Shown one piece after another: positions 40,928 through 61,100 of a stretch of DNA of 64,000 bases (positions within the stretch are counted from its first letter, which is position 1; every line of letters starts with the position of its first letter). The position numbers were made by a program, and so were the translations under genes. Below the pieces are notes generated by a model. The model saw only the letters and a program-made list of their open reading frames with translations. It was not told the origin of the DNA and did no database searches. The DNA is from a virus, in IMG/VR virus record IMGVR_UViG_3300045988_087221. One strand, written 5' to 3'.

Positions 40928-41576
40928 TTTATTTGTATCCTATAATTAGGTATAGGCTCCTTCTTACTTAGAGTCTCCTTAGATAGAATATACTCCAATA
41001 GGAGAAGAATTAACTAATTAGGAAAATTTAGATAGAATTTAGTCTAGAAATTAGAAAAAAGAAGGATTTGCAGGATGGAATCCTCTAGAACAAAATACTT
41101 CAGAAGACAATTCAATAAATACTTCTCATACTCCTGCAAAGGGTTCTAAGTCCTTCAATTTAGCTATGACTTCTTATTTAGCTAAACATCCTGAAGATGC
41201 TAAATATAGATAGACACTTACAGAAATAGCTGCAAAAGAATCTAATTTTAATCCTACTGTTAAAAATGCTAAGTCCTCCGCTAGTGGATATTTCTAGTTT
41301 ATAAATAGTACAAGAAAGCAATATGCACCGCATTTAACTAAAGAACAATTTTTAAATAATCCAGAGGAATAGATTTCTGCTGCAGTTAAATTACTTAAAG
41401 CTAATAGAAATATATCTAGTAAATTCGCTAATTTAAGAGGACTTAGTTAGTTACAAGTTGATTATGGAATGTGGTTTAGTCCAGCAGCTTTAAGTCAATA
41501 TCTTAAAACTGGTAAATCCAATTTTAAAGACCCACAAGGAACTAGTTTAATGACAGTACTAAATAAAATGGCTTAA
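40914..41576 (+). CDS. Lytic transglycosylase (SLT domain) protein (220 aa)
   Basis: The sequence IAAKESNFNPTVKNAKSSASGYFQFINST matches the SLT E-S...G-(L/Y)-(M/F)-Q pattern. The catalytic GAA is at 41238-41240, and the motif Q is the TAG at 41295-41297. The ORF ends at TAA 41574-41576. Confidence 0.8.
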
Positions 41577-42199
41577 TGGATAAGAAAAGAATAATTATAG
41601 GAGACAAACAATATACTGTAGAAATAGCTAAAACTGAAGAAGATAGAAAGAAGGGGCTTCAAGATAGAGAATAGTTAGCACCTGATGAAGGAATGTTATT
41701 TATCTGGTCTGAATAGTAGCCAGTTATAGAAATGTGGATGAAAAATACTAAGATTCCACTTGACTAGATAGCTATTAATAATGATGATGAAGTAACTGCA
41801 GTATATAAAGCTTAGCCCGAAGATGAAACGCTACACCCATTTCCTAATGCTAAGTATATACTTGAAGTAAACTAGAATTCAGGTATAGAAGAAGGAGATG
41901 ATTTTGAGTTTGATGAATCTGATGACCCTAATAAATATGTAATGAAGGTACTTGCTCCTGATGGTTCGACTCAGATGGATCTATAGGGTGGAGAACGCAT
42001 ATTTAGTAGAATTTCTACAAAATAGATGATTACTTGGGCTAAGAAAGCAGAAGCTAATAAAGATAATAAGGAGTTATTTAACAAATACTGTAAGAGACTT
42101 GGTAAGAGAATGTTTAAAGAATTATATGCTCAAGACCACAGAGAACCAGAATATGTAGATGCTCCTGAATCTAAGAAAGATTAGAACGATAAAAAATAA
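41576..42199 (+). CDS. DUF192-domain protein with a charged C-terminal extension (207 aa)
   Basis: The sequence KKGLQDREQLAPDEGMLFIW...MWMKNTKIPLDQIAI...YILEVNQNSG matches the DUF192 pattern. The ORF ends at TAA 42197-42199. Confidence 0.75.
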
Positions 42200-42662: not shown

Positions 42663-45600
42663 ATGGCAGAATAGACTAAAAAATCGAAATATAATTTTGG
42701 AGGTCATGAATTAGATGCTAAATTATATCTCTAGAATATAAGAGATAACGCAGAAACATTTCTTAATTCTAAAACAGATTGGACTCCAGAACAAAAAGAA
42801 GAATGGAAGCATGCGTACACTAATTTTACTAATGCTTTATAGGAAGATATTAATAATGGAGGCGGAAGATTCAGTACTGATGAATTTGGGACTATAACAG
42901 ACACTAAGGGAGAATTTTCTAATACAGATTCTGATAATTACTATTATAATAATAAGGGTTAGCAAATTAGTTAGGAAGATTATGATGCTTTAAAAAAGAG
43001 AAAGCAAGGTAAGTATTAGTCTTTTGAAGCTAATAGACAATTTGCCTCTTATGCTAGTTAGATAGGTAAAGGGCTGAGAGAAGCTTTAGCTGCTAAAAAT
43101 AAAACTTCTGATGATACAAATGGATTTGACTATGCTAAGAACGGATTTGATGCTTATTGGTAGAAGAAATACAATCCAGCAGGAACAGCTAATGACCTTC
43201 AACCTTATTGGAATAAAGACAAAGAAGGAGAATACACTAATAGAGTAGCTGAAACTATGGCAGACTTAGATGATTATATGTCTAAGTAGGAAATGAATGA
43301 TGATGTTAAAGCTGCTTATACTAATTATAGAAATATTCTAGGACAATATAATCCAAGTGATAAGAATTTTAATTTAGATACTTGGAAGAACAATATGATA
43401 CTTGCTGCAAGTAGAGCAGGTATTAGTGGATGGAATAATGGATACTTTAATATCGGCTCTCAAAGTACTACACCTACAGAGGATAAAAAGTCTGAGGCTT
43501 TTGATATAAATAATGATTAGGCGGTTATTGATAAATATAAATTAGCAGACTAGATTGCTGCACATCCTGAGTAGAGAGAGCATCTTCTTGATTTAGCTAG
43601 AAGACAATATAATCAGGAATCTTAGAATATAACTGATGAGTACAATGCAGCTATTAAATAGGAATAGGAAATTGCTAATAATAAGATATGGCAGTAGTAT
43701 TTAGCTAATGAAGGTAAAAGTTATGCTAATGTAAGTAAAAGAAACTTTGGTACTGAAGTCTTTGGTAATGGTTGGCAAAACGGAAATACTGATTTTGAGT
43801 ATACTAGTAGAACTAGTCAAGAGGCAATGAGACGTTTATAGAATGCTTTTAAAACTGGAAATAGAAAAGGAGATTTTCTTAGAACAGCTATTAATATGAC
43901 AGTTAATGGAGGTAAATAGAAGATTTCTAATCTAGGTGAAGCACTTGCTTATTATAAACCATTACTCGATAAAACACAAGGTGGTTGGGATTAGTTTGAA
44001 AAAGTATAGGATGCTGCAGGTAATGAAATATATAAATTAAAAGGTTCTGAAAATGCAAAAGGGCAACCCCTTTATATATGGTTCAAAAATGGAAAAGCAC
44101 ATGCTTATAGAGACGATCCATATTCTGTAAGAAAGGCTTAGATTATCTCAAGAGCTTAGTTAGGTATGAAATTACAAACTAGAGCTGAAAAAGAGGCTGC
44201 AAAAGAAAAAGAAAATAAAAAAACTCTTAGTAATCCAAATACGCCAGAAGATAAAAAGAGACAAATAGCAAGTTAGAGAAGACCCGGAGATACTGAGTTT
44301 ACTGCCACTGATATAGCTAGAATATCTGCAGCTGGAATGGATGTAGCTTCTGCTTTATCAGCGTTTGTCCCAGTGTACGGTACTGCTATAAGTGCAGGCA
44401 CAGGTTTAATTTCTTCTTTAACTAATTTTGGTGCAGATATGTCTGATAAGTCTGTATCAGCAGGAGATATGTGGAAAAATCTTGGGACTAATATTGCTAT
44501 GGATGCCGTAGGATTGGTTCCAGGTTTTGGAGCCTCTGGAAAAGCAGGTAAAATAACTAAAACTTTAATTAAATATGTACCTAAGATAGTAACTGCCCTA
44601 TCTGTGGCTAATGCTTTATCTCCTGAATCTAGAGCATCTTGGGCTAAATTAGCTAGTAAAGAATCTCTCACAGTTAAAGATTGGCAAAATATTGCAGCGG
44701 GTTGTTCAGCTTTAGCAGGAGTTTCTAGAGGTGCAGTTGGACATTTTAATGCCCACACGATGGCTAAAGGTACTAAAACTAAGGATTTTAATATAACTGC
44801 TTCTGATGGCAAATAGTATAAGGTAACTGCAGAATAGTTAGAAACTTTAAAGAAACAAAAGTCATTAGAAGATGTAAATAAAGAATTTAAGAAGTTACAT
44901 CCTGATGCTGAATTAAGTAGTTTCTTTAGAAATGGTAAATGGTAGTAGTTAAGACATTTACACTTTAATAATCCTCAAGTTAAATCAGTTTATGATTTTA
45001 GTCGATTAAATAACTAGGGAACATTTAGTAACTCTAATATATGGAGAGTAGCTAGAGAAAATAACTTACATGGTATTAGTTTAGATGTAAAAAATCCATA
45101 TAGAAATTCATTACTTAAACAACCTACAGAATCTTCAACTAAACAGAAAATCTAGAGATTAGTCAATTCTCCTCTTAGAATAGGATTTGATAATGCACCT
45201 ATTGGTTAGTCATATATACCCCCAACTCCAAAATATGGACCTAAAACACAAGGTTAGACTTGGAGAGATTTATTTTAGAAACATGGATTCTATTTTAAAG
45301 AAGGTGGTTCGATTTAGAAATTAGCTAATGGTAATAATATAAATGGTAATCCTGCTAAATAGAATAGTGTAGGATATGCTAATGATTATAATTGGAATAC
45401 TGATGTGTTTTCCAAAAATTTAGACCATATACTTGGTAGTCTTAAATAGTATAAAGATGGTTATGCTAATTGGTTAAATACTATGTAGGACTTACATTAT
45501 AATGATTATACTAATGCTTCTAAATAGGATTATTTAAATACTAATGCATATAATAATGCAACTGTTGGTTAGTATTAGGATAAGTATAAAGCGGGATATG

Positions 45601-47033
45601 AAGACGAATGGAATGTAAGTCCTGAAGGAAATGATCCTGATGGTTTAGGATACAATACTCTTGGAATTAAATCAGCCCAAGATTCTGGAAAATTTGGTAT
45701 AGTGTCTGGAAAGGCTAATTCAGGTGATTGGTTAGGTAATGGTAATATGTATAAAACTGATAATTCATTTGGAGGAATTACTGATGCTAGAAGACTTTTG
45801 GGTCGTGAGGGTGATTTTAATGATGAATAGCTAAAACAATACTAGCAAAAATTCAAAGAATAGGGATATGATTTTTATTTAGACCCAAATACTAAATATT
45901 ATAAATTAAAACCTTACACTGACCCTTCAAAGACGACTGTAGCAGACTAGGATAAACCTAAATAGCCTAATAACTTTAGTTTAAAAGATGTTATAAATAA
46001 GATTGATGTTACTGATAAATGGGGTATTCCTAGAGCTATGTATGCTGACATAACTAATAGAAAAGTTACAGATATGTTAAAGAAGTAGCCTATATTATAT
46101 GACCCACAAGAAGACCATCGTTATATTTAGTCTGATTTAGATGCAGAAATGAATGGTCAATAGGCTGCAGCTTAGTTAACTAGAACAGCCAGTCATCCTA
46201 TTACATCTGATGGAAATTTACAATCTATGCTTTAGTTAGAGGCAACTTCTAAAGGTAATGACGCTATTACTGCAGGACGTCAATAGAGTAATTAGAGGTT
46301 AAGAGAAATGTAGGAATAGGCTTGGTAGCAGGAAGTGACTAATCACACAAGTAGACATGATGTTGCTATGAAGAATAGAGAATCTCTCTATAATACTGCT
46401 AACGAAAATAAAGCCTTAGAAGCAGCATACCTCAATTAGAAATTTACTGTATGGGATGCTTTGGCTTAGGAGAAGGAATTTAAGGATAAATCTGATTACG
46501 AGCAAATGAGAGCAAGAGCAGATTAGTTTGCACAAGGAGATATAAATAATGCTATTAAATATGGTCTTTCTAATTATGCAGATAAATATGGTTTAACTCC
46601 TGAAGATGTTTCTTTATGGAATAAGGTATATACTGATGGTACAGTTAAATTGAGCGATATTTAGAAAGATCCAGTTAAATTAAGATAGTGGAATAAGGTA
46701 TTATCAGCTACTAGACAAATTTAGCAAGATTTATTAGGAGAATATTATGGTATCCCTAAATCTAAGTATTGGACTATCAGACAATCTACCCCTTCATATA
46801 GTTACAGTACTGAAGTTAAGAAAGCTAAAAAAGGTGCTAAGCTAAATTTACGTAAAGTAAGAGAAGCAGCAAAAGGAGAAAAACTTGCAGCAGCATAGCT
46901 AAAAGCTTAGACTGCAGATGCTGATAGATTCTATAAAACTACTAAAGACCATATAGATAGAATGTATGATGCTATAAATAGACTAACTAATTATAGTAGT
47001 ACTAAGAGAAAACGTAAAAAGAAATCTAATTAA
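42663..47033 (+). CDS. Giant virion cargo/ejection-like protein (1456 aa) with an internal Ala/Gly-rich hydrophobic region
   Basis: ATG 42663. Track ORFs 43293 and 44337 share its frame, and I checked the rest codon by codon as open apart from TAG. The ORF ends at TAA 47031-47033. Confidence 0.85.
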
Positions 47034-47035
47034 AT

Positions 47036-48898
47036 ATGATATTTAAGTTTCAATAGGGAGGAGCCACTCCTCCCTTTGTTGCTTATTAGCCAGTTATAGT
47101 GTCTGATAAGCGAACAACTGCCACTTAGGAAGAGGCATTGGCAGCAAAGGCTACTAAAGAATCTGAAAGTGGTAAGTTATCAAGCAAAGATTTGTATACA
47201 ATGCTTAAAGAGAAATTGAAGGGACTTCCTAACGATGTAAATATAGCTATGAATTAGTTACAATAGCTTGAATAGCTTACATCAATGGATTTTGATGGTT
47301 CATTTACTTAGAACATTGAATCTAAGTATTTATCTACTTTACAAACTATGAATCAACTTTCATTTAGTAGAGAATAGTATGATAAAGCTTTAGATAATGT
47401 AAAATCTAATGGAGGACTTAATGAGGCTGCTATAGATTAGTATGGTCAAGTATATATGACTGATGGTAAAGACTATAAATTAATGTCTCCTGAAGAAGCT
47501 AAATAGTCTGGATGGAAACAAATGACTAATTAGGATTTACTTTATTTAAGAGCTAATGACCCTAATTTATCAGGGAAAGATGAGATATTAAATGTAGTTA
47601 ATAACGGTATAGGAATTAGTCAAGTAACCAAAATGATACAGGATAGTATTGGAAATTTAGGTACTAATAGTAATTCAGAAACTGCTTATGCTACAACTCA
47701 ATAGGGTTAGCTTATACAAGGACTTAATGATTTTATTAAAGCAGCCCAAGAAACCGGGCAATATGATGCTTCTATAGAAGATTTATATAAAGCACAAATA
47801 ATCAATAAAACACAGGCTCAGTAGGCTCAGTAGGCTATTGCTTATATATATAAAACATTACCACAGAATGCTAAATCTTTATTAAAGACTAGAACTGAAG
47901 GAGGGACTGATAAGGAAGCTTTAAACTTAATTAGTACATTAGTATTATCCAAAACTAGTGAAGATAGATCTTTTACTGCAGATTTAGAGGGTGGTCCTAC
48001 TAAAAAATCTATGTCTAAAGATGCTAATGCTGGAAGTAAGGATGATACGGAGTTGAAAACATCTCTTCCATTACAAGTTATGTAGGATATGGGAGGAGCT
48101 GATATAGCTCCAGTAACTATTGATAAAGGTGATGGAGTACAAATGTCGGTATATGGTTCATTCTTCTCTGCTATCAACGATAAAAAAGGTGAACCTATTG
48201 TTAATACTTCTCTATAGAATATGTTAGCTCAATCGGGTTTACAGGATATAGTTAAAAATGTTAGAAGTATAACTTTTGGAGATTAGAAACTTACTCCTGA
48301 GTAGTTATCTAAAATCACATATAACAATACTGGAATTGTTAGGGCTGACTTACCAGTAAATGAAGATGGAACTGTAAAACTAAGTGTTCTTGATGATTTT
48401 AATGCAGCTATGAATGAAATTAAAGGACTTGGAAATGCATCTAAGGAACAAGTAGAAGCTATTAAGGCAAAGTACCATCTTGATCAGTATCTTAAAGATG
48501 ATGGTACTCCTGATCCTAAACATACTGCTCCATTTATACTTACTGAAGGTTATACTACAGAGAAAAATGGTATTGAAGACACTGCATATGTTAAACATAT
48601 CAAAAATCCTACGGATGATTAGATACAATTAATTAAAGATTCTCTTACTGTGGGTACTGGTAAAGATGCTAAAGTTCCAGATATAGATACTTTTGATTGG
48701 TACAATCCATTTGATTGGTTTGGTACTGAAAATATTTATAAAGCAACTGTATATATTCCAATATCTAATAATGTGGGTGCTGCTGTTAGAGGAGGTAATT
48801 AGAACTTAGATTATAATGAAGCTCTTAAATATGAAATGAAGTATAGGAACTTCTAGAGAATGAATAATGCAAAAACTACAAGCGCTGACGTATTATGA
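47036..48898 (+). CDS. Virion cargo-like protein (620 aa)
   Basis: ATG 47036 is in the frame of track ORF 48410. TGA 48896-48898 overlaps the next ATG. Confidence 0.8.
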
Positions 48899-51800
48899 AC
48901 GATTGGTTAGTGGCAAATATAAATAATCCCGATTTTACAGTTTCTGACTTTAAAAATATCGCGGATATGAGTATAGATAATACACAATTTTTAAAGAAAG
49001 ATTAGTATTTAAAGTCAGATTTTATTAAGAATAATCCTGCTTTTAAAGGAAACAATGGAGACTTTGATTAGAAAAAGTTTGATAAATATTATGATTAGAG
49101 ACTTTAGGATTTCTAGTAGTTTAAAAATGATAAAACTCCAGCAGGATTTGAACTTGATGTTTTTGACACATTAAGAACTCCTAATGATAAGGTTAGAAGT
49201 AATGGTCTTAAAATAGGTAGAGGTTATAATCCTGATAGATAGAAAATTGGTATTGAAGGAGTAAATGTTTGGAGTAAACCTGAACGTAGTAGATCGGAAT
49301 TGGCTCAAACATAGAAAATATTTAATTCTGAGACTGGTAAATTTGAAAATTGGACACCAAATGATAATGCACTATTTAATGGTAAATCCGATTTTGGTTT
49401 AAGTTGGTTAAAATCTTTATTTTCAGACCCATTAGTATTGGCTCAATATGAAGAGGATACTATAGACAAAGATGGCACTAAACATAAGAAAGGAGACTAT
49501 AAATTAAATGAAGAAGGTACATATTATTATGAAACTTTAGGAGGTAGAAATCCCATTGGTAAACAAGTATTATCCTCTTTAGATACTCTTACTGTGGATG
49601 GTACTAAATTAAACAAATATGATTTCTTTGATTCTGATGATATTGAAAAGTCTGTAGGAGGGGTAATTGCTAAGAATGTAGCTACTCTTATACCTATGTT
49701 TGTAGGGGGTCCAATTGGAACTGTTTATTCTACAGCTCTTATAGCTAGGGAAATGGCTAAGTCATTACCTATGTTATATGGAATGACAACTGCTTTATTT
49801 AGTGATTCAGAAACTCCTAAATGGATGAATACCATAGCTGCTATGGGTGATAAATTTACTTCTGGAACTTCTGACTATGCTAAAGAACATACCTTTAGTG
49901 TTGAAAACTTTGGTAATCTTATTTCTGATGTAGCTTTATAGTGGGGTCAGCAAAAAGGTATTGCCTAGGCTATTAATAAACTAAAAGGTAGTAAGAATTA
50001 TATAGAAGAAGCTATGGAAGATGCAGCTAAATTATACAAGGCTAAGGCTTCTTCTATGCCTATGTAGGCATTATCTTAGACTGGCAATTGGCAAGATAGT
50101 GTTTTAGGAGCTGCTTGTATTAAAAAATACTTACCAGCAGCTGAAAAAGCTATGAAAGAATCTACTTAGCTAGGACGTGATGCTTCATTAGCTTATATGG
50201 CTATTGTATCTAATTCTGATGTATATGGGGATGCCTTACAACATGGTGCTTCTAAATAGGATGCAGCAGCTATAGCTTTAGGTAGTACTTTAGGTATGTA
50301 TGCTGTAGACAAATATGCACATCTTGGAGAGTTGTTTTTTGATGATGCTACAGAAGATAGTGTAAAGGCAGCTAGAAATGCTATTAAAAATGAATTATTA
50401 GGAGAAGCAGACGAGAAAGGTGTTAGAAAGGGAGGTTTAAAAGCTATATTTGATCAAATAAGTGCTTCTAATGATACTCCAGCTAATAAAGCAGTGTAGA
50501 AAATACATGCAGCCTTAAATAAAACTAAATCTTTTCTAGGTAACTATGCAGATGATTTAAAATACCATACTACAGGATTTTTTGGAAAGGCTGCAGGTGA
50601 AGGTTTAGAAGAAGTAGGTGAAGAATTAGTTACAGATACTGCTAAATCTATATATTAGTTAGCAGGATTTTTAGGAGCAGATACTTCAACTGCTGATGTG
50701 GGAGCTTGGGATAATGCATTGGAAAGATATTCTATGTCATTTTTAGGAGGCGCTCTTGGTGGAGGTGTATTCTATGCAAAAGAAGCTTTCGATGGTGCTT
50801 CCTACAAAAGAGATAAATCTAATGAAGAATTAGCTACTTTAACTAGAAATGGGCATATAGGAGAATTACGTGATGAAGTAGAAAAGTTACGTAAGAAAGG
50901 TAAATTAGGAAGTACTAAATTATCTGCTAGTGATTATGAAACCACTTCTAAAGGAGAAAATGTTTGGTTAACTACTAATAATGAGAATGATTCTTAGAAT
51001 TAGAAAATTGCAGACTTAATTAATGATAAAATTACAGCTATAGATACTGTAATAAATAATAATCAAGTTGGTTTAACTGATGATTAGTTATTTAATACAA
51101 TGGTATTAGGAGAACAAAGATATTAGATGTATAAAGATATTGCTCCTATAACTAATTATTATGAAGATTTTAATGAAGTCCTATCTAATTTAATTAAAGC
51201 TGAGTTAGACTACAGAACTGCTTCTCAAACATTAGATGGTTCTACAGAACTTACTGATTCTAATAAAATTACCGACTAGAAACTTAGAGCCCTAACTCCT
51301 GAATAGCAACAAAATAGAAATAATGCTCTTGCTGTATTATAGTAGAAAGTAGAGAAAGCTAGACAAGCTAAAGATGAATTTTTATCAGGAGATACTTCTC
51401 TTGATTATACTCGTAAACTAAATTTTGCTCTAGACCCTAATTTACACAGTCCGTTTATGGATATAGATGCTGAAGCATTGTGGAAAGAGTAGTTTGGGAA
51501 TAAGTCCATGGATGAAATATCTGATGAAGATAAATTACATTTTTATACAGTAGTTTTACCAGAAAAATAGAAATTTTAGACTAAGGAAGCAATAACTAAA
51601 TCTTGGGATAGATTTAAATAGATTGAAAAAGTTATTAATCCTGAGTTACATAATCTAACAGATAATGCTCCTCAGTTTAAACAATGGCATTAGAAATTTC
51701 AGCAAATAGTTAGTTAGTTAGATTCTAAGGATTTAATATCTAGCTATGCTAATTATGATACTAAATTAGATACAGAATCAGATGACGAATATAATGCTAG

Positions 51801-54800
51801 AAATAGTAAATTGATAGACCCTGTAACTGGAGCAGAAGAATCTGATTAGGATTTTATTAATCGTAAGAATAATAGAACACGTCAAATTGAAGCTCTTAAC
51901 GATTAGAAAGATGCTGAGTGGGTTAATAATATAATGTAGTAGCTAGCTGTAGTAGGTAATTAGTTAGACCCAATAGCAGCAGGAACATTAAAGAAACTTA
52001 TTCCTAAGAGAATTAAAGATGTATTAGCTAGAAAAATATAGTTGGCACCATTAAGTAATGAAGTTAAGAGTATTTTGGGTAATCTTAATACAGATTTAAG
52101 TAATACTAAGGAAGTATTAGATACTATTAAGAATAGTGCTTTAGCTAAAACTAAGAGTTTAGTTAAATAGAAAGCAGCAAGTATTCCTAAAGTTTATACA
52201 AATTTTAAAGGAGAAGAGTTAAATCCCGAAGATTTATTTACGATTGATGGGATAGAAGATATGACTATTTAGGAATTAATAGACAATCCTTCTTAGTTAT
52301 ATGATATTGACGATGATTAGAAGTAGGATATTATTAATCAACTACAAGCTATTACTGATCCAGAATTATAGGATTAGATATAGAATATCTTAGCTAATAT
52401 AAATGATCCTCAAGCTACTATATAGAATCTTAATTAGTTATAGAAATCAGCTCCTTAGTATAAATAGAAAATAAATAGTTTATTAGATTTATATGAATTT
52501 AAAATATCTAAGGAATAGTCTGATAAAGTAGTTAATAATCTTATTGATTTAGCAAGTATAATTAATCCTGATACTAGTATATCTTCATTAGTAAATGATG
52601 ATATGGGAATCTAGGATTAGTTAGATTCAGATGTTGAATCATATGTTTCAACATTAACTCAAGGTGTAAATAATGAAGTAAATTCTTTAGTTGCAGATGT
52701 AGGTAACAATGCTATAGTTAAATTACATAACTCCATATAGAGTACTATTAAGAATCCAGTAATTGAATTAGTTAAATCTCTTGCAGGAAAAGTTCTTGAT
52801 AAAACTCAAATGCCTGATGTTATTGATACTTTAACTAAATTAGACACTAATTTTGATGAAGTTGAAAATATTGGAGAATTAGTACTTGATGGAGAGCAAA
52901 TGAAAACTCTTTAGAATACTAGAGATGCTTTGGCTATGGTAGCTACATATTTATATGCAGCTTCTAGTACTCCTACAGGTAACAATGTTATAGGACATAA
53001 CAAAGTAATAAATGAGTATGCTAAAAAACATAGTGACGCTGTTCAAAACTGGGAAGAACTTCCTGAAATTGATGATGATTATGCAACTATATATTAGGAG
53101 CAACTTAATTAGTTTATAAAGACTCTTGATGCTTGGATTGATTTATCTAATAATAACGATATAAATAAGAGAAGACAATTTGAAGAAACTGATAAAGCTT
53201 TAACTAGAAGTTTTAATGGTTTATGGCAAGCTAATAAACAACATTTTGTTATCGATGTAAAAGATAAACATTATAACTTGTTAGAAGGTAGTTTGGATGA
53301 TAATGTTCCAGATGTTTCTCTATTTAATTATGAAAAGGCTTTTTATGGTAATTTTTAGAAAGCTCTATAGGAATCAGGAATGTCTGTCTCTGAGTTTTTA
53401 AAAGAATCTAATATTCTTGACAAACTAATTAGTTTTAATTAGTTAGGAGATTAGAGAAATACTCGATTAAACCCTAAAATGTAGTATGGAGATATGTCAG
53501 AATATGACAAACTCCAATATTTAGCAACTATATTATCACTTAATCCAGTTGATTTTTATAACTTTTTAAAAACTTCAGTAGGATAGAACTCTGATAAAGC
53601 ACCAATAGCTAGTCAGGAATATGCTTCAAAAGTAGCTATTGCTTAGACTACTTAGACTTATAGAGATATAATGAAATATGCTTTTGATAAGTCTGGAAGT
53701 AATTTGTATAATGCTAATAATACAGTAATAATTACTGGTGATGCTGGTAGTGGAAAAACTTCTGTAGTAGGTAAATCTGTTATTGATTTTCTAGGACCTG
53801 AGACCAAAGTACTATGTGTGGGACCAACTTCTACATAGGCTTAGGGATTACTTACCTCATTTGGAAGAGGAAAGTCAATGGATATTGAATCCTTAATGAG
53901 AAAACTTTTAGGAGACACAGTTTGGGCAGATTTAAAATCAGATTTAGATATAGAGTATAAGCCAAGTAAAAACTAGTTAGAGAAAGATTCTGAATACTTT
54001 AGTTATTCTGCAGGTGATTTTGCTTAGACTAAACTTAAAAAAGACTTTACGTTTAATTAGTTAGATGAGATTCCAAGTATATTAGCTATAGATGAAGCTA
54101 CTCATATCCCAGCTCCGGTACTCCAAGTTTTAGATACTTATATGTAGAAAAATGGAGGAACTTTAATGTTACTTGGAGATGAAAAATAGAAAGGGTATTA
54201 TAATAAAAATAATGCTATAGGCAATATGAGACCTGTAGATTTATTTGCTTCTAGAACTCCTGAATTAAGTGTATCTTTACGTGATAATAATATTTAGAAA
54301 CAAGCTAATTTGAACAGCGTAAAGACTATCTTATCTTAGGCTATTACAAATATGTATGAAATGTCAGAATCTGATTTATCATCATATTGGAAAACTATTA
54401 ATCCTTTACTTTCTAAATTGAACTTTAGAGTTTATAATTAGAATACTTTAGCAGGTGATTTAATTACCAAGACTTTATCAAATGATACCATTAATAAATT
54501 AAAAACTTCTACTAATGTGGGATTCATTGGAGATACGTCTAGTGCTGCATACTAGGCTATGAAACAAGCAGGTATGAATCCTACTGTATTATCCAAGGAT
54601 TAGATGTAGGGTTAGGAGTTTGAATATGTAGTAATTGATCAACCATTCACTAAACCCGATGCAGATTTCCATATTAGAGACTTTTTACAAGATTTATATA
54701 CTTTAATGAGTCGTGGTAAAACTGCTTCTATTTTTATCGATAATGGATTAAGTAATATCATAGGTAATAATACTCAAGATGATTATACTGCTAAAGCTCC

Positions 54801-57800
54801 TAGTCTTAAAGATAAGATTAATGGAAAAAGTACTATAGAGTAGCTAAAAGAACGTAAATTATCTATATTAGATTAGTTAGATTTATCTCCTATTGAAGGT
54901 TTAAATGAAACATCTAATTAGACTACTTAGTAGGCTATAAATCCTACAGATTTTAAAGCACCTGAATCTTTAAATATAGATAAAGATACTGAAGAAGCTG
55001 TTAATTAGTTAATTGATTCTGAAGAAGAAACTAAAGATTCACATGAAGTTGAAAATTCAATAAAAAGTGAATTTACAGTAATGTCTTGGGGAGATTGTAC
55101 TTTAGTTGGAGCTAAAGCTGTGGAAGAAACTCATAAAGGTAAAAATGGTAAAGAGTATAAAGGAAATGCATGGCATTTTGGACCCGATTAGAATGGGGAG
55201 TTACGTAATATATCAGCTTTAACAGATTAGAAATCAGTTTTCTGGTATACAGATAAGCAGACTTTAGAAAAATAGCTATATTAGGTAAAATCTGCTTTGA
55301 TTTTTAATCATAGTTATGATGAAACCATTTTAGGTACACATACTAGAGTAATGCCAACTTGTATAACTGACAACTTTAGTAAAGCTGATTGGGATGCAGG
55401 CACTTATGAATTAGAGATTCGTTCTGTTGAAGGGGAAATTCAACCCTCTTTTAAGCCTATGCCAGAAGTAGGTATGACTTATAAAGGAAATAAGTATGTG
55501 GCTAATATTATATTTAAAGTTAAAAATAAAAAAGGACAAATATGTAAATTTGACTTAGCAGGTATTAATAATCCTGAGACTTTAGCTAGCAATTTAAGTA
55601 AAATAAAAGACAGAATTAGCCAAGAACTTTCTGATCCAACTATTTCTAATGAAAGAAAATCTAAATTACAAAATATCCTTAGTACAATCGAAAATAGGTC
55701 TTAGAAATGGGCTAATTTGTTTGATTCTTGGATAAACAAATATAATAAAGAAGGTAGTTTTTCTATAGATATAAGTAAAGCAATAGTTAGATAGAAACAT
55801 ACTTGGTTTACTAAAAGAACTGGATCTGAAATAAGACTGGGAGGTAGAATTGACCCTAATGCTGTTGATAACACTAAGGATTTTAATAATATGAAAGACA
55901 GAAATCCTGGATTTGTATTTTCAGAAGTATATACTTATGCAGCTAAAGACCCTACTCTATTGAATATTGACCCTTCCTTAAAAGGAAAAGCAGTAGTATT
56001 TGTTTCTTCTGATACCTTATTAAAACCAGAAGATTTAGTTAAATAGTACATAAAACAAATTCAAGATCCAGAACATAATTAGCCTATAGTTAGAATGATT
56101 AGACTTCATAATTATGGTATGACCTTTAGTCAAATGACAAGTAATGAATTCTGTAATAAAATTTAGGGAGGAGATGATACTCGACTTCCTTATAGAGCTA
56201 ATTATCATGGAATTTAGATGTTTGTTTCCTTATGGAACTGGAGAGCTGCTTTAAGTAAATTTAATGAAGCTTTAAATAATTGGATGTAGGAAAATTAGTA
56301 CGATGCTAAGAAACTAGACACATTAATTAAAGCTCAAAATTACTTATTTAATAATAAATAGGTAGATGCAGACACTTATTTAACTAGTAAAAAATTAACT
56401 AGAGCTGATTTAAATAATTTAGAAAAGTTTAACTAGGAAGTATGTAAAGATATACCTACCTTTAGATTAGGTTACTCAAAAAAACATGACTTTCATGTTT
56501 AGCGATTTAAAGTTGCAGGTAGTTAGGCTTATAGAAATAAGTCTGAAGCTAATTTAATAGTTATAACTCCTGATAAAGCCAAGCAGTTCTATTAGTTAAG
56601 TAATAGAATATTAGGAGCCATATGTCCTTCTCCTTATGTTGATACTTTAGGTCTTTAGTTATTACATCCTGGTGCTTAGAATCCTGATGGAACTAGAGAA
56701 CCTGATACCCCTTGGGAAGAAAATGAATTTATTGATATAAATAGTGCTGATCATTAGAGAACTCTTTCTGGTTTATTTACGTCTGATTTAAGAATTGTAG
56801 AAACTAAAAAGGATAAATCTAAAATAGACATTATTTATAAACAAGGTGAGTAGTGGTCTGCAATCCCCAGATATTTAAATAATATCCTTAGAACCGTTAC
56901 ATTCTTTTAGTATAATCCTGATTAGCTTTCAGGCACCTATACAGAATCTGCTAAAGTATCTTGGGATGATAATGGAACAAAGAAAACAGTAAGTACTTAG
57001 ATAGGGGATTTATTTGGCAATGGAGGATTATTAAAAACAAGAAATGATACCAAAGTTAAATCAGGAGAACATCCTGATAGAAGTCTTGCAGATATGTTCG
57101 ACTTAATGTTCCATGGAACTACTGATGATATTCATAGAAAATATGATAAGAACAATCCATTAATGAGAGCAGATGATGCTAGATTCCCTTATGGCTTTTT
57201 TATTAATCCTGATATATCTAGAACTAAAGAGAGTGCTAGTTCTACTGATATAATTAGTATTAAAGCAGGAAAAGAAACTGTATTTTATCCTATTAAAACC
57301 TCTGATGAATTATTTACTTCCGACAATGATTTAAGAGCAGCAGGAATTGATTTATCTATTGATGAACTGTTAAATAACACAGTAAGTCCAACTAATTCTA
57401 CAAATACTTAGACTAGTACTGCTCCAGCAACTACTCAGCCTAAAATAATTCCATTAGAATAGAGAATGCCTGTAGCTGCAGAAGTTCTTAAACAGGTTAA
57501 TGACTCAGGTTTTAACTTTGATGAAGATACCCTAGAAGAGGCTGTTGATAAATTAAATGAAATTACTAAGAACTCGATAATAGATGTATTTAAAACAGTT
57601 GGTTAGGACTAGGCTTTAGAGCTGCCTATAAATTACACTTATTAGAAAACTGGAGATGTTAAGAAATAGACTTTAAAGGATATAATTAGTTCTTAGGTTC
57701 AAGGAGAATTTAATTTAAAAACTAAGAGTATTAATGGAGAATCTAAATTAATAGTGGAAAATAACGGAACTGAGTACGAATTAGATACTGAAACCTGGAC

Positions 57801-58116
57801 TCTTAAAGGCGATTAGGTATAGAAAGTCAATAATAAATTGGATGAGTTAATTAACTTTAACGGTAAAGAAGTAAAAAAATCAGTAGCCCTTAATTAGCTA
57901 TTAAATAGTTAGGAATTTAAAAATAAACTTGACGATACTAGCACTCTAGATGAATTTATATAGAAATTAAACACTCTTATAAATAATGCTAAAACTCTTA
58001 ATGAGGATTAGATTTCTGAGGCATTACATAAATTGAAAGATGACCTTAATTATGTAGATATAACTGGACTAATATATGATGATTATCCAGAGTTATATAA
58101 AATATTTGAATGTTAA
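48895..58116 (+). CDS. Giant protein (3073 aa) with an embedded SF1 (RecD/Dda-like) helicase/ATPase domain
   Basis: ATG 48895. Track ORFs 49438, 50296, 50698, 55297 and 57094 share its frame. The first non-TAG stop is TAA 58114-58116. Helicase motifs: GDAGSGKT (53737-53760), VGPTSTQAQGL, AIDEATH (DEA at 54091-54099), LLGDEKQ (Q is TAG 54187-54189), QMQGQEFEYVVID (54601-54639) and LYTLMSRGK. Confidence 0.85.
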
Positions 58117-61100
58117 TGGCAGTATGTAACTTGCTAAATACCTATAGTCCAGCAGATATAGGTAGAGCCTTAATGACTTATTCGCGTGACGAGAATGCTG
58201 ATAAATTTATTGATAGATTTATAAACAAATAGGGAATACCTAAAACAACTAGATATAAATTAGATTCGTTAGATTCTGAAGATAGTATTTAGAAATCTAT
58301 TCAAGGATTTAATAAATCTATGGATGATGCAATAGCAGCACTAACTTCTAGAAAACCGGATTTGCTTCCTAAATTTAATGAATTAAGAAGTAAAGTATTA
58401 GAAACCCTTCATGTAGACTTAGACGAACACTCGTCTGGGTCTACTCCAGAGGGAGATAGTTCTATTGAAGCTAAAACTACTTTTGAAATATTAGATAATA
58501 ATTAGTTAAGTTTAGATGAACATCTTAAAGAAATATATGGTACTGGAGCATATAATATTATTAGACAACTAAAAGAAGGATTTAATGACAACCTTTTTGC
58601 AGCATGTTATTATAATGTAGCTAATGGAGTCTTAGTTGTACAAGCAGATAATGTGTTAAATTAGAATCTTATTAATCTTAAAAATAAATATTTTAAGTAG
58701 ATAGTAGAATATTTAAAGTCAGTAGATTCTAAGTATGAAAAATTACCTAATGAATTTGTAAATGAAGAAGGATTTATAGGAGGTAAGTATTTTTATGTAA
58801 TGCAAGCTTTTTATGATCATATGAAACATATTCCTAATTTACAATAGACTCTAGATAGTTTATCCTCTAAAAGACTTAATAATTATGATAAAGTATCTAA
58901 TACACAGGCATATACTTAGGTAGTAAATGTTTTATTACAAAATCCGGATTTTAAAAAGACCCTATTTAATATTTATAGGTCTGGAAAATAGCAAGATAAT
59001 GTAAGGAATACATTGTATTTAGCAGACCATTTGTCTTCCTATTTCTATGAAGTTAAAAGATTATTAAATACTAAGAAATATCAAGATTTATTAGATACTG
59101 AAATAGACGGAAAAACAATCAAAGATATATTAGATAGTTTTGAATTAGAAAATAATGATTTATTAAATGCTGCAAATGCGTATACCTCTCTAATTCATTT
59201 TGATGAAATGCTAGTAGACTCTTTAGGAGATGCCATTGACATCAAACAGGGATAGAAAGGAATGGAGTTTGGAGACCCTACCAAATATTCATACAAATAG
59301 GAAACAGCTCATTAGAAAAAAAGTTGGCAACAAAGTGAATCAGTAGAATCAGAAAAATATATAGCAAATGTAGTTAAAGCATTCTTTAGTTAGATAAGAG
59401 TGTTAAATTATAAAACTGACCAATTTTAGAATAGAAGATTAAATAGCACTTCAGTTATTGTGGCTGCCAGAAATCTTATTGATGATGTTCTATATAATAA
59501 ACTTGATTTATTGCAATGGGCTAGGAATAACGATAATAGGGAATAGGCTGTTAATGATTTTGCTTTAGCTTTAATAGATTTACATGAGAATCCATAGAAT
59601 TAGTTATATAAAGCCTTAAGTTTGTTATTTGAACCGATAAAAGGAAGCAGTTAGAGATTAATTGACACAATTCCATTAAATAATACTACTGCGACTACCG
59701 AATATGATTTAAATATATTATATTCATTATATGAAGCTGCTTTAAATGAAAGTAATCCAAATTCTTTAAGATCTTAGGAATTAAAAAATGCTAAACAGAT
59801 AAACGGTACAGTTGCTTAGTTGTCTGCTGAAATATCGGGTATTATAGATAGGAATACTACTATGCATTATCTTGAAACGTCTTTTGATGGCAAAACTGGT
59901 ATGGTTCAAATTAAGGTAAAGAAAAGATACTTTAATAATGCAGATACTTACAAAACTAGGGTAAGAATTAATAGAAATATTAATAATGCTTCAGCTTCTG
60001 AACGTGAAGCTAGACGTAGTAAGTGGTAGTTTGACACTATTAATACTGTAGATGGCAATAAACAGTATTCTATAGTAATTGGAGATGAAAAAGTTACTTA
60101 TATATCTACTCAGATATTAAATTCCGATGGTAAATATTAGAATAATGAATTATTTAATGATTTAAATAAAATTGATTTAACTTCCTTTAGATAGAAATTA
60201 CTTAGAAATGAGGAACTCACTGAACGGGAAAGAAAATTAAAAGATCTATTATCTTTTATTGATGACCATTTAAGTTTAAAGATTCTAGATAACCCTTCAT
60301 AGAAAATTCAGCAGCTTGAGATATTTCAGTAGTTAAATAAGGATAATTTAAAGAATTTAACTACGTTAGCTATTAAAGCAGCCTATGTTAATTATCTCTA
60401 TGATGAGGCTGGAGACTAGGATTTTGCATAGTATTTATCTAATACAGGTAAAGATGGAATTTATCGAATTTATGAAAATAATAAAAAGAGCAAACTGTTT
60501 ACTAATATGTTTAATAACTTAAAAATTACAGTTGCTTCTTTTAAGGATAGTATACTTGAAGCTTGGAGTGACGCTTATTCCATGTAGTCAGGAGAAGCTT
60601 CTAAGGCTACTACTAAAAATAAAGCTGGTGATAATATTCCAAATAATAGTGTAAATAAATTAGGTACTAATATTCATCATTATTTATTTAAATAGAAAGA
60701 TACTAATGCAAATAGTTTGTTCTTTGTTCAAGATTCTACTAAAATTAAAGGTATTCAACATGACTTAGAAGCTACTTCACAGTGGCAAGAGTCTAAATAG
60801 TTAAAGAATTTTTCGTAGGGAGAGTTATTCTTTCATTCTGTATTTAATAAGTTCTGGGGAAGCTATTTACAATATGGAACATTTATAATATAGCCTACAG
60901 CTTATTCTGATAAAACTACTTTCATTAATTATGAAATTACTAAGAATCTATTTGGAGACGATATTATAAATGATGAAAATCTAAAAGACACTATAGTTAA
61001 AGAGACTATTAACACTATAGGCACCTTTTATAAAAATGTATGGAATTCAACTAAAAATAAACTGCAAAGACTAACTGATGCCTATAATAATTAGCATGGG

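What the first reader, a model, noticed from the sequence alone, without database searches (positions are those of the whole stretch)
53640..54760. Complete SF1 (RecD/Dda-like) helicase motif set embedded in the middle of a 3073-aa late-module protein
Seen: the motifs occur in order and in one frame. They are Walker A ITGDAGSGKTS, Ia VGPTSTQAQGL, Walker B ILAIDEATH, motif III LMLLGDEKQ, the QGxEF-type motif DQMQGQEFEYVVID, and LYTLMSRGKTASIF. The domain lies about 1600 aa into an ORF that sits between cargo-like proteins and the presumed virion RNA polymerase. In phages, helicases of this type normally sit in replication modules as stand-alone proteins. Inference: an NTPase/helicase may be packaged and injected with the genome, to assist early transcription or DNA ejection, or this may be a fusion not yet described. 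I cannot tell from memory whether this architecture is already catalogued for Crassvirales.
Basis: partly seen in the sequence, partly recalled or inferred. Interest (0 to 1): 0.7.

Follow-up and report, generated by a model that had tools for sequence, protein, structure and literature searches.

The report
Helicase inside a giant crassvirus protein
A 3,073-residue protein of an abundant gut crAss-like phage, encoded between the tail and injected-protein genes and the virion RNA polymerase gene, carries a complete and strictly conserved SF1B helicase in its middle, which suggests, but does not prove, that this phage lineage injects its own DNA-unwinding motor.

Summary
Read with TAG=Gln, window 48895-58116 is one 3,073-aa ORF, and all six cited motifs lie in order in one frame. 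Pfam AAA_30 and AAA_19 score above their cut-offs. A family profile hits Upf1, IGHMBP2 and RecD in the PDB. An AlphaFold model (pLDDT 93.5) matches only SF1B helicases (Dda, RecD/RecD2, nsp13, Upf1). The catalytic residues are invariant in 74 relatives that share no more than 50% identity, and the motifs are intact in 120 of 120 close relatives.

The fusion is real. A standard-code relative has an uninterrupted 2,970-aa ORF, and the same architecture and gene order occur under three genetic codes. In 1.84 billion representative proteins, this helicase family was found only inside such giants.

The gene order is muzzle, SLT lysin, DUF192, two cargo-like proteins, the helicase giant, then the vRNAP (GSDYDIDKAYIM, matching phi14:2 gp66 and crAss001 gp50). 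The giant's start and stop overlap its neighbours. crAss001 and phi14:2 lack the domain.

Orthologues are already labelled "RecD-like protein" or "Helicase" (Lera phage Table S1; UniProt), but I found no discussion of the architecture. Packaging and function are inferred. The best guess is an injected helicase that supplies single-stranded template to the vRNAP.

The parts
48895..58116 (+). Giant ORF, 3,073 aa when TAG is read as Gln (121 in-frame TAG codons; stop TAA)
   Evidence: Full-length orthologues of 3,070-3,105 aa on contigs up to about 190 kb. An uninterrupted 2,970-aa ORF in a standard-code relative.
53515..54819 (+). SF1B helicase domain (aa 1541-1975): an N-terminal helical extension plus two RecA-like domains
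   Evidence: AlphaFold2 model with pLDDT 93.5 and pTM 0.92. Foldseek PDB hits to Dda/DSH9, RecD, RecD2, nsP2h, nsp13, Dna2 and Upf1, all with probability 1.00. Profile against PDB: Upf1 at 3.5e-10.
53731..53763 (+). Motif I / Walker A, ITGDAGSGKTS (catalytic K1621)
   Evidence: Lys present in 74 of 74 diverse relatives and the motif in 120 of 120 close relatives.
53818..53850 (+). Motif Ia, VGPTSTQAQGL (P1644 and Q1648 conserved; Q1648 is encoded by TAG)
54079..54105 (+). Motif II / Walker B, ILAIDEATH (D1733, E1734)
   Evidence: D and E are invariant.
54163..54189 (+). Motif III, LMLLGDEKQ (invariant Q1765, encoded by TAG)
54274..54291 (+).
54598..54639 (+). Motif V, DQMQGQEFEYVVID (Q1905, G1906, E1908 invariant or nearly so; Q1903, Q1905 and Q1907 are encoded by TAG)
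54694..54735 (+). Motif VI, LYTLMSRGKTASIF (invariant T1936 and R1940)
48895..51174 (+). N-terminal block (aa 1-760), the most conserved part of the family. It is mostly long alpha-helices and has no relative in Pfam or the PDB.
49654..49749 (+). The only strongly hydrophobic segment of the giant (aa about 254-285); a candidate membrane-interacting helix or hairpin
   Evidence: Kyte-Doolittle scan only
32782..39339 (+). Crassvirus muzzle protein (tail tip)
   Evidence: Pfam crAss_MUZ, E=1.4e-18, 66.9 bits against a cut-off of 27
40914..41576 (+). SLT lytic transglycosylase
   Evidence: Pfam SLT, E=6.4e-11
41576..42199 (+). DUF192 protein
   Evidence: Pfam DUF192, E=1.1e-22. The same gene is present in Lera.
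42663..47033 (+). 1,456-aa protein in the position of crAss001 cargo protein C1, with a hydrophobic segment at nt 44313-44411
   Evidence: The position matches gp45 of crAss001. No sequence homology was detected.
47036..48898 (+). 620-aa protein in the position of cargo protein C2. Its TGA stop overlaps the giant's ATG (ATGA).
   Evidence: A protein of about 620 aa is conserved in this position in divergent loci.
58110..64000 (+). N-terminal 1,963 aa of the virion RNA polymerase homologue (3,434 aa in the close relative L003). Its ATG overlaps the giant's 3' end by 7 nt.
   Evidence: GSDYDIDKAYIM at aa 2432 in L003 aligns with crAss001 gp50 GSDFDVDKLYIM and phi14:2 gp66 GSDFDIDKMYVM.

Best explanation
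The window comes from a TAG-recoded, roughly 190-kb crAss-like phage, most likely of the 'Zeta' group (proposed Echekviridae). Its 3,073-aa gene encodes a multidomain protein: a strongly conserved helical N-terminal block, a variable linker, an enzymatically intact SF1B helicase (aa 1541-1975) and a less conserved C-terminal region.

Shown: the domain is a real two-RecA SF1B helicase core with every ATP-binding, ATP-hydrolysis and coupling residue conserved. The fusion is real and ancient in this lineage. The gene is translationally coupled to a cargo-like gene upstream and to the vRNAP gene downstream, within the tail and ejection gene block.

Inferred: the protein is made late and packaged as a capsid cargo protein, as crAss001 gp47, gp49 and gp50 are. 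It is then ejected into the cell ahead of or with the DNA, refolds, and uses ATP to translocate on the incoming genome. The most likely job is to help the co-injected crAss-type RNA polymerase. That polymerase hardly transcribes duplex DNA but is very active on single-stranded DNA. The helicase could open the duplex to provide template, and/or strip the transcript from the template so that it can be reused.
For: Helicase identity:
- Pfam AAA_30 and AAA_19 score above their cut-offs.
- A profile of 36 family members hits Upf1/NAM7 at 3.5e-10 across both RecA domains, then IGHMBP2 and RecD.
- The AF2 model has pLDDT 93.5, and its Foldseek hits are exclusively SF1B helicases with probability 1.00.

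Active enzyme:
- Walker A Lys, Walker B Asp-Glu, motif III Gln, motif IV Arg, motif V Q-G-x-E and motif VI Thr/Arg are invariant or nearly so in 74 sequences sharing no more than 50% identity.
- All motifs are intact in 120 of 120 close relatives.

Real fusion:
- A standard-code relative has an uninterrupted 2,970-aa ORF with the same layout.
- The family occurs under three genetic codes.
- Of 173 hits in 1.84 billion representatives, every full-length one is 2,700-3,600 aa with the domain at about residues 1,400-2,200. The shorter hits are fragments.

Module:
- The window itself encodes crAss_MUZ, SLT and DUF192 upstream.
- The gene order is conserved in L001, L003, L005, L006 and in Lera.
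- The downstream gene carries the vRNAP catalytic motif.
- Start and stop codons overlap on both sides.
- There is no excess of promoter-like or terminator-like sites.

Packaging analogy and late expression:
- crAss001 gp45, gp46, gp47, gp49 and gp50, encoded in the same positions, were detected in virions by mass spectrometry (PMC10172136; gene order).
- The gene holds 121 TAG=Gln codons, and in recoded phages such codons mark late genes (PMC9523058).

Need for a helicase:
- phi14:2 gp66 did not transcribe double-stranded M13 DNA and transcribed native phi14:2 DNA only weakly, but transcribed single-stranded or denatured DNA very efficiently.
- Its structural relative QDE-1 needs RPA and the QDE-3 helicase (bioRxiv 10.1101/2020.03.07.982082).

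Separate replication helicases exist in this lineage (Lera Table S1; Yutin 2021).
Against: - There is no direct evidence that the protein is in virions. The one metaproteome I could search holds no peptides of this phage at all.
- No sequence homology to crAss001 gp47 or any other crAss001 protein was detectable, so the equivalence is positional only.
- Cultured crassviruses manage without such a domain, so it is not a general requirement of crAss-type vRNAPs.
- Nothing here distinguishes a DNA from an RNA substrate, or the polarity.
- The ejection route requires a 350-kDa alpha/beta enzyme to unfold and refold. This is plausible, since the N4 vRNAP does so, but it is untested here.
- The Zeta-group assignment rests on synteny, genome size and recoding, not on a phylogeny.
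Confidence: 0.45

Rival explanations
1. Genome-internalisation motor. The protein is ejected and anchored at the envelope channel through its helical N-terminal block and hydrophobic segment. The SF1B motor then reels the roughly 190-kb genome into the cell, rather than serving transcription.
For: The gene lies in the ejection module next to an SLT lysin and cargo-like proteins. There is a hydrophobic segment at aa 254-285, and the helical N-terminal block is the most conserved part of the family. Genomes of this lineage are about twice the size of those of crassviruses that lack the domain (contigs up to about 190 kb; 145-192 kb in PMC10136315). From general knowledge, T7 and N4 complete DNA entry by enzyme-driven translocation.
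Against: No structural match links the N-terminal block to any channel or membrane protein (best Foldseek E=0.19). There is only one weak hydrophobic segment. SF1B helicases translocate on single strands, which does not fit pulling in duplex DNA. The MT835470.1 relative is a 117-kb linear scaffold that may be incomplete, so the genome-size correlation is untested.
Confidence: 0.2
2. Not packaged. It is a late-expressed intracellular helicase that works in late replication, recombination, concatemer processing or packaging, and merely happens to be encoded in the late operon.
For: SF1B helicases in phages (Dda, RecD-like) normally act in replication or recombination (general knowledge). The nearest NCBIfam names are RecD2 and RecD. 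No proteomic evidence of packaging was found.
Against: The gene is conserved in a fixed position between cargo-like genes and the vRNAP across relatives of 25-50% identity and under three genetic codes. It is translationally coupled to both neighbours. It is fused to about 2,600 aa of non-enzymatic, largely helical sequence like the crAss001 cargo proteins. The lineage has separate replication-module helicases.
Confidence: 0.17
3. Injected counter-defence factor. The helicase protects or remodels the entering DNA, for example by displacing host nucleases or restriction complexes, or by acting on DNA ends against RecBCD-like attack.
For: Being delivered before any gene expression is the ideal timing for counter-defence. 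There are weak superfamily hits to defence-associated helicases such as GajB and AbiO. Zeta phages are described as rich in adaptive and counter-defence features (PMC12386605).
Against: The PADLOC hits are weak and generic (15-25 bits, mostly Walker A regions). Strict conservation and a fixed position argue for a core function rather than an accessory arms-race function. No nuclease or inhibitor domain was found elsewhere in the protein.
Confidence: 0.1
4. Degenerate or purely structural helicase-like domain, or an artefact of reading through real stops (several genes mistaken for one).
For: UvrD_C_2 scores below its Pfam cut-off. PHROGs and a single-sequence PDB search gave nothing.
Against: All catalytic residues are invariant. 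The structural model is of high confidence. The ORF is uninterrupted in a standard-code relative. TAG codons encode the conserved Gln of motifs Ia, III and V, and Gln is the commonest residue opposite TAG positions: 17-18% against a background of about 4%.
Confidence: 0.02

Closest known systems
SF1B helicases of the RecD/Dda group (T4 Dda, D. radiodurans RecD2, E. coli RecD, deep-sea helicase DSH9)
   Same: The same motif set (I, Ia, II-VI) and the two-RecA fold. They are the top Foldseek hits at E=2e-10 to 1e-8 with probability 1.00. Pfam AAA_30 scores above its cut-off.
   Different: Sequence identity is only 11-15%. NCBIfam RecD2 and RecD scores are 14-35 bits against cut-offs of 310-670, so this is not a family member at equivalog level. 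Those helicases are stand-alone proteins of 440-750 aa in replication or repair, whereas this domain is embedded at about residue 1,600 of a 3,073-aa protein in a virion and ejection gene block. An SH3-like 2B domain was not evident from the secondary-structure string, but this was not properly tested.
Upf1-like SF1B helicases (Upf1/NAM7, IGHMBP2) and viral SF1 helicases (coronavirus nsp13, alphavirus nsP2h)
   Same: They are the best sequence-profile matches in the PDB (Upf1 at 3.5e-10 over profile positions 95-440; IGHMBP2 at 1e-5) and are also structural hits. nsp13 is a helicase that works attached to a viral polymerase complex.
   Different: Those act on RNA or in RNA-virus replication and carry CH or zinc-binding and 1B/1C accessory domains, which were not found here. 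No specific relationship beyond the SF1B core was shown.
Orthologues already in databases: Lera phage gene 191 'RecD-like protein' (PV725988; Table S1 of PMC12386605); UniProt A0A8S5TKT5 'Helicase [Podoviridae sp. ctz6O13]'; A0A8S5RTY8 'RecD-like protein [Siphoviridae sp. gcode 4]'
   Same: The same giant gene. In Lera it is 8,346 nt and lies in the same order: muzzle, a 517-aa gene, DUF192..., a 628-aa gene, RecD-like, a large hypothetical gene, then RNA polymerase. The BFVD segments match the model at TM 0.75-0.78 with 26-35% identity.
   Different: These are name labels only. The main text of the Lera paper never mentions RecD, and I found no discussion of the embedded position, the conservation or a virion role. 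Lera uses TGA=Trp, whereas this phage uses TAG=Gln.
crAss001 'RNA polymerase-associated' virion cargo proteins gp47, gp49 and gp50, and phi14:2 g065 and g066
   Same: The same genomic position (gp47 follows muzzle gp44, C1 gp45 and C2 gp46). They are giant, largely alpha-helical proteins and are virion components by mass spectrometry. The downstream neighbour here shares the catalytic motif of gp50 and gp66.
   Different: No detectable sequence homology to the giant. None has a Walker A motif or any match to the helicase profile. Even the family consensus finds no classified crassvirus among 50,697 GenBank phage records.
Helicase partners of related or analogous transcription systems: Neurospora QDE-1 with QDE-3 and RPA; from general knowledge, vaccinia virion NPH-I and NPH-II, and E. 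coli SSB recycling the template for the N4 vRNAP
   Same: The concept of a polymerase that prefers single-stranded template and depends on a helicase or SSB. QDE-1 is the structural relative of the crAss vRNAP. The poxvirus examples are helicases packaged in virions for early transcription.
   Different: There is no homology. QDE-3 is a RecQ (SF2) helicase and NPH-I and NPH-II are also SF2. Those partners are separate proteins. The functional link is not demonstrated here.

Membership tests
Superfamily 1 helicases, SF1B (RecD/Dda/Pif1/Upf1-like) core | Ordered motifs I (Walker A), Ia, II (Walker B DE), III (GDxxQ), IV, V (QGxE) and VI (arginine finger) in one polypeptide | tested here: met
   All were found in order. 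They are invariant in 74 diverse relatives and in 120 close relatives.
Superfamily 1 helicases, SF1B (RecD/Dda/Pif1/Upf1-like) core | Two tandem RecA-like domains, with closest structural similarity to SF1B members | tested here: met
   AF2 pLDDT 93.5 with alternating beta-alpha elements. The top 50 Foldseek PDB hits are SF1B helicases (Dda-like, RecD/RecD2, Upf1-like, Dna2), viral SF1 helicases and the SLFN11 helicase domain, all with probability 1.00.
Superfamily 1 helicases, SF1B (RecD/Dda/Pif1/Upf1-like) core | Nucleic-acid-dependent ATPase with 5'-to-3' translocation | not testable with these tools
   Needs biochemistry.
Pfam AAA_30 / AAA_19 / UvrD_C_2 domain families | Score at or above the gathering cut-off | tested here: met
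   AAA_30 scores 31.8 against 27 and AAA_19 scores 26.3 against 25.1. UvrD_C_2 scores 22.9 against 27.4, which is below its cut-off. AAA_30 and AAA_19 are also precomputed on nearly all orthologues.
RecD / RecD2 proper (NCBIfam TIGR01447, TIGR01448, NF008127) | Score at or above the curated equivalog cut-off | tested here: not met
   Scores are 14.4-34.5 bits against cut-offs of 310-671. 'RecD-like' therefore describes a resemblance only.
Known anti-phage defence helicases (PADLOC) | A significant full-length match to a defence-system model | tested here: not met
   Only short, weak hits (15-25 bits), mostly over the Walker A region.
Crassvirus ejected cargo / RNAP-associated virion proteins | Encoded between the muzzle gene and the vRNAP gene in the late structural block | tested here: met
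   crAss_MUZ lies upstream in the window. The vRNAP motif gene lies downstream. The synteny is conserved.
Crassvirus ejected cargo / RNAP-associated virion proteins | Physically present in purified virions | not testable with these tools
   The only accessible metaproteome lacks this phage.
Crassvirus ejected cargo / RNAP-associated virion proteins | Sequence homology to crAss001 gp45, gp46, gp47, gp49 or gp50 | tested here: not met
   blastp, and five regional family HMMs run against crAss001 40-90 kb, gave nothing significant.
Zeta crAss-like phages (proposed Echekviridae) | Crassvirus hallmark genes, a genome of about 145-192 kb, stop-codon recoding that switches between close relatives, and gene order as in Lera | tested here: inconclusive
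   The muzzle gene, contigs up to about 190 kb, three genetic codes in the family and Lera-like synteny all fit. No TerL or portal phylogeny was made, and no Zeta reference genome was available in the collections.

The most novel reading that the evidence does not exclude
Zeta-group crassviruses package and inject a dedicated SF1B helicase as part of a multi-protein, virion-borne transcription machine. The helicase is the missing factor that lets a crAss/QDE-1-type RNA polymerase, which prefers single-stranded template, start on the double-stranded incoming genome, or that also reels that genome in. As far as my searches show, this would be the first helicase known to be delivered by a tailed phage's ejection apparatus.
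Probability: 0.35. Interest if true: 0.8.

Novelty: new variant of a known kind. Interest (0 to 1): 0.55.

Why it matters
[quoted passage not shown] Single 90%-identity clusters of this protein hold 201-657 member sequences.

How the virion RNA polymerase of crassviruses starts transcription on duplex DNA is unresolved. The purified phi14:2 enzyme works well only on single-stranded DNA. A strictly conserved helicase that is translationally coupled to the polymerase gene is a concrete and testable candidate for the missing activity in one large lineage. It would also extend the list of enzymes that phages are known to inject.

More practically, the result shows that the database label 'RecD-like protein' hides a 3,000-aa ejection-module protein that is not a RecD family member. 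It also provides clean evidence for TAG=Gln, because conserved helicase-motif glutamines are encoded by TAG.

Tried and rejected
- Table-11 ORF listing and translation gave only fragments. TGA or TAA reassignment does not restore ORFs.
- No tRNA, and so no suppressor tRNA, is present in the window.
- Megablast of the gene against GenBank phages found no match.
- PHROGs gave no family for the giant and almost none for its neighbours.
- A single-sequence phmmer search of the helicase against the PDB found nothing. A family profile was needed.
- Pfam on the cargo-like neighbours and the downstream giant found nothing. phmmer of the downstream giant against the PDB found nothing meaningful.
- The N-terminal block has no relatives by PDB profile, by Pfam or by Foldseek (best E=0.19, so the ABC-transporter and MFS look-alikes are rejected as noise).
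- Homology of any region of the giant to crAss001 was rejected.
- Lera (PV725988) and p-crAssphage (JQ995537, NC_024711) are not in the collections, so Intestiviridae were tested only through the collection-wide tblastn searches.
- The supplements of Yutin 2021 held nothing on a helicase in the transcription block.
- The Peters 2022 metaproteome holds no peptides of this phage's capsid protein or of the giant. Its fully listed phage is a different, smaller crAss-like phage.
- The 2026 preprint on an amber-recoded Segatella crassvirus does not mention a helicase.
- The DFDMD motif in the window's first ORF was rejected as chance: about one such match is expected, and there is no RNAP or Pfam similarity.
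- The short 'stand-alone' hits in the exhaustive search are all fragments of giants.
Full report
**1. The observation**

Under the standard bacterial code the region is a field of stop codons. Counting stops by type shows that only reassignment of TAG restores long reading frames. The whole 64-kb window then becomes a single-strand array of large genes, including an open frame at 48889-58116.

From the ATG at 48895 this frame encodes 3,073 aa with 121 in-frame TAG codons and ends at a TAA.

**2. TAG = Gln**

- The invariant Gln of helicase motif III (GDEKQ, Q1765), the conserved Gln of motif Ia (Q1648) and the Gln residues of the QGxEF motif (Q1903, Q1905, Q1907) are all encoded by TAG.
- TAG is the main Gln codon of the gene, at 121 of 174.
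- Gln is the commonest residue opposite TAG positions, both in a 74-sequence family alignment (17.8%) and in a standard-code homologue (19 of 110). The Gln frequency of that homologue overall is 4%.
- No tRNA gene lies in the window.

**3. It is a helicase**

- Pfam: AAA_30 (E=1.5e-7, 31.8 bits against a cut-off of 27) and AAA_19 (26.3 against 25.1) cover aa 1607-1801. UvrD_C_2 covers aa 1899-1947 just below its cut-off, at 22.9 against 27.4.
- PDB by sequence: a single-sequence search found nothing. A profile of 36 family members (alignment A1) hit Upf1/NAM7 at E=3.5e-10 to 1e-8 over both RecA-like domains, then IGHMBP2 (1e-5) and RecD (1e-4).
- Structure: an AlphaFold2 model built on A1 is very confident, with mean pLDDT 93.5 and pTM 0.92. 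Foldseek against the PDB returned SF1B and related SF1 helicases throughout, all with probability 1.00. They include Dda-like DSH9, RecD in RecBCD, RecD2, T4 Dda, chikungunya nsP2h, coronavirus nsp13, Dna2, Upf1 and IGHMBP2.
- The TM-scores are only 0.3-0.4. I attribute this to inter-domain orientation and to the roughly 90-aa helical extension, but I did not verify that.
- NCBIfam gives only superfamily-level scores to RecD2 and RecD, 14-35 bits against cut-offs of 310-671. PADLOC gives only weak generic hits.
- The domain is therefore an SF1B core. It is not a member of RecD proper or of any known defence helicase family.

**4. It looks enzymatically alive**

I aligned the window's protein with 73 relatives taken from a library clustered at 50% identity. 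The following are invariant or nearly so:

- Walker A Lys (74/74)
- Walker B Asp-Glu
- motif III Gln (74/74)
- motif IV Arg (74/74)
- motif V Gln (73/74), Gly (73/74) and Glu (74/74)
- motif VI Thr and Arg (74/74)

All six motif patterns are also intact in 120 of 120 close relatives of 91-94% identity.

**5. The fusion is real and lineage-wide**

- The word-indexed search returned more than 900 relatives. The best 120 are all 3,070-3,105 aa, on contigs of up to about 190 kb.
- The exhaustive HMMER scan of 1.84 billion representative proteins, using the helicase segment alone, found only 173 hits at E<=1e-3. Every full-length hit is a protein of 2,700-3,600 aa with the domain at about residues 1,400-2,200.
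- The shorter hits are truncated within the domain and/or carry giant-specific flanks, so they are fragments. No stand-alone member of this helicase family was seen.
- A GenBank relative (MT835470.1, about 29% identity) uses the standard code. It has an uninterrupted 2,970-aa ORF with the same layout and the same neighbours of 1,556, 614 and 2,281 aa.
- Another relative uses TGA=Trp (L005), and the window and L003 use TAG=Gln.
- The 'several genes separated by real stops' alternative is therefore excluded.

**6. Genomic setting**

Within the window, Pfam identifies three genes upstream:

- the crassvirus muzzle protein (32782-39339; crAss_MUZ, 66.9 bits)
- an SLT lytic transglycosylase (40914-41576)
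- a DUF192 protein (41576-42199)

A 1,456-aa protein with one hydrophobic segment follows, then a 620-aa protein, then the giant, then an ORF that runs off the window's end.

In a 91%-identical contig that last ORF is 3,434 aa. It carries GSDYDIDKAYIM at residue 2432. This aligns with GSDFDVDKLYIM of crAss001 gp50 and with GSDFDIDKMYVM of phi14:2 gp66, the experimentally validated virion RNA polymerase. So the neighbour is the vRNAP homologue, although its catalytic motif lies about 1.4 kb past the window's end.

The 620-aa gene's TGA overlaps the giant's ATG (ATGA at 48895-48898). The vRNAP ATG at 58110 lies 7 nt inside the giant's 3' end. There is no excess of promoter-like or terminator-like sites. 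The three genes form one tightly coupled unit.

The order of a roughly 1,600-aa gene, a roughly 620-aa gene, the helicase giant and a 2,000-3,000-aa gene is kept even in the most divergent members.

**7. Comparison with characterised crassviruses**

In crAss001 the order is muzzle gp44, C1 gp45, C2 gp46, then gp47 (2,341 aa), with gp49 and gp50 nearby. All five cargo and RNAP-associated proteins were found in virions by mass spectrometry and are thought to be ejected (PMC10172136).

The window's giant therefore sits in the gp47 position. However, neither blastp nor five regional family HMMs detect any crAss001 protein. None of gp45-gp50, nor phi14:2 g065 and g066, has a Walker A motif or a match to the helicase profile.

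tblastn with the window's helicase, and with the family consensus, finds only two unannotated 'Bacteriophage sp.' records among 50,697 GenBank phage genomes. On this evidence the helicase is specific to this lineage and is not a general crassvirus feature.

**8. Which lineage, and what is already known**

Four things fit the 'Zeta' crAss-like group of Yutin et al. 2021 and the 2025 description of phage Lera:

- a contig size of about 190 kb
- code switching among relatives
- the muzzle gene
- the gene order

Lera's Table S1 lists muzzle, a 517-aa gene, DUF192, a 107-aa gene, a 931-aa gene, a 628-aa gene, 'RecD-like protein' (8,346 nt), a 2,106-aa gene, a homing endonuclease, then 'DNA-dependent RNA polymerase'. 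That is the same module. The main text of that paper never mentions RecD.

In the BFVD structure library the two best matches to my model are segments of long virome proteins. They are named 'Helicase [Podoviridae sp. ctz6O13]' (35% identity, TM 0.75) and 'RecD-like protein [Siphoviridae sp. gcode 4]' (TM 0.78).

So a helicase label already exists on orthologues. I found no paper that discusses the embedded architecture, its conservation or a virion role. The Zeta assignment itself is not proven here, because no reference genome was available.

**9. The rest of the protein**

Conservation along the family is highest in the first roughly 750 residues, higher than in the helicase itself. It is lowest at residues 1100-1250 and in the C-terminal 500 residues.

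The N-terminal block has no Pfam or PDB relatives. Its model is moderately confident (pLDDT 78.7) and consists almost entirely of long helices. It has no significant structural neighbour. One hydrophobic stretch lies at aa 254-285. No other Pfam domain is recorded on any orthologue.

**10. Mechanism**

Shown:

- an intact SF1B motor
- an ancient fusion
- a fixed place in the tail, ejection and vRNAP block
- translational coupling to both neighbours
- heavy use of the late-gene codon TAG

Inferred:

- The protein is packaged as capsid cargo, like its positional counterpart in crAss001, and is ejected with the vRNAP.
- It most likely assists early transcription. The phi14:2 enzyme did not transcribe duplex M13 DNA and transcribed the native phage genome only weakly, but it transcribed single-stranded or denatured DNA very efficiently.
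- Its eukaryotic structural relative QDE-1 needs RPA and the QDE-3 helicase.
- A co-delivered 5'-to-3' helicase could expose template and/or strip the transcript. From general knowledge, the second role would be analogous to SSB-mediated template recycling for the N4 vRNAP.

I put this at about 0.45.

Rivals:

- a genome-internalisation motor, about 0.2
- a non-packaged late replication or recombination helicase, about 0.17
- an injected counter-defence factor, about 0.1
- a dead domain or an artefact, about 0.02

The main weaknesses are the lack of any proteomic evidence, the lack of detectable homology to crAss001 gp47, and the fact that cultured crassviruses do without such a domain.

**11. 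Verdict**

The protein is a lineage-specific variant of the crassvirus giant cargo and RNAP-associated proteins, and it has acquired, or retained, an SF1B helicase. It is labelled in databases but not analysed in the literature I could search.

It is of moderate to good interest because it offers a testable candidate for how a virion RNA polymerase that prefers single-stranded template engages a double-stranded genome.

Noticed in passing
window 34828-35112 (within the muzzle gene 32782-39339): The muzzle protein carries an insert of about 95 aa made almost entirely of Gly, Ala, Thr and Val, and strongly hydrophobic (…IGKIAAITAGVVALGAATVFTAGAAGALVAGS…AIATG). Low-complexity, membrane-like sequence of this kind is unexpected in a tail-tip protein.
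   Followed up: no
window 40914-41576 and 41576-42199: An SLT lytic transglycosylase (E=6.4e-11) and a DUF192 protein (E=1.1e-22) sit between the muzzle gene and the cargo-like genes. DUF192 is in the same place in phage Lera. The lysin may be an ejected cell-wall-cutting enzyme.
   Followed up: partly
window 42663-47033, with the hydrophobic segment at 44313-44411: This 1,456-aa protein is in the position of crAss001 cargo protein C1 (gp45, which has a predicted transmembrane helix). It has one hydrophobic Ala/Gly/Ser-rich segment, but no Pfam hit and no detectable homology to gp45.
   Followed up: partly
window 58110-64000 and beyond (L003 19225-29231): The vRNAP homologue is a single ORF here and is 3,434 aa in a close relative. 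In phage Lera the equivalent region is listed as separate genes (2,106 aa, a homing endonuclease, then an 876-aa 'RNA polymerase'), which suggests that mobile elements or splitting vary within the lineage. The catalytic GSDYDIDKAYIM motif lies about 1.4 kb beyond the window's end.
   Followed up: partly
whole window (1-64000): Every large gene is on the + strand and uses TAG as a sense codon, and TAG is the majority Gln codon in the giant gene (121 of 174). Yet no tRNA gene, and therefore no suppressor tRNA, lies in these 64 kb. Four small ORFs have no TAG at all (5733-6176, 13188-13640, 13640-13939, 14127-14396).
   Followed up: partly
L001 (MT835470.1), window/L003, and L005: Orthologous giant genes occur under three genetic codes: standard, TAG=Gln and TGA=Trp. 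This gives a ready-made natural experiment on code switching within one conserved gene family.
   Followed up: partly
window 3-5267 (ORF truncated at the window's start): This 1,754-aa ORF fragment contains DFDMD, which resembles the RNAP catalytic motif. It has no similarity to crAss001 gp47, gp49 or gp50 or to the downstream vRNAP, and no Pfam hit. About one such match is expected by chance in a window of this size, and its C-terminal part looks like a tail-fibre or leucine-rich-repeat-like protein.
   Followed up: partly
window 14828-15793: This 321-aa protein, with a Cys cluster (NNCCCSTQ) and Gln/Asn-rich coiled-coil-like sequence, gives the strongest PHROG hit in the window (phrog_16490, E=1.9e-27). 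That family has no known function.
   Followed up: no
window 21127-22548: The major capsid protein is recognisable only weakly (phrog_11589, E=9e-8), and most structural genes have no PHROG family at all. This shows how far the lineage lies from catalogued phages.
   Followed up: no
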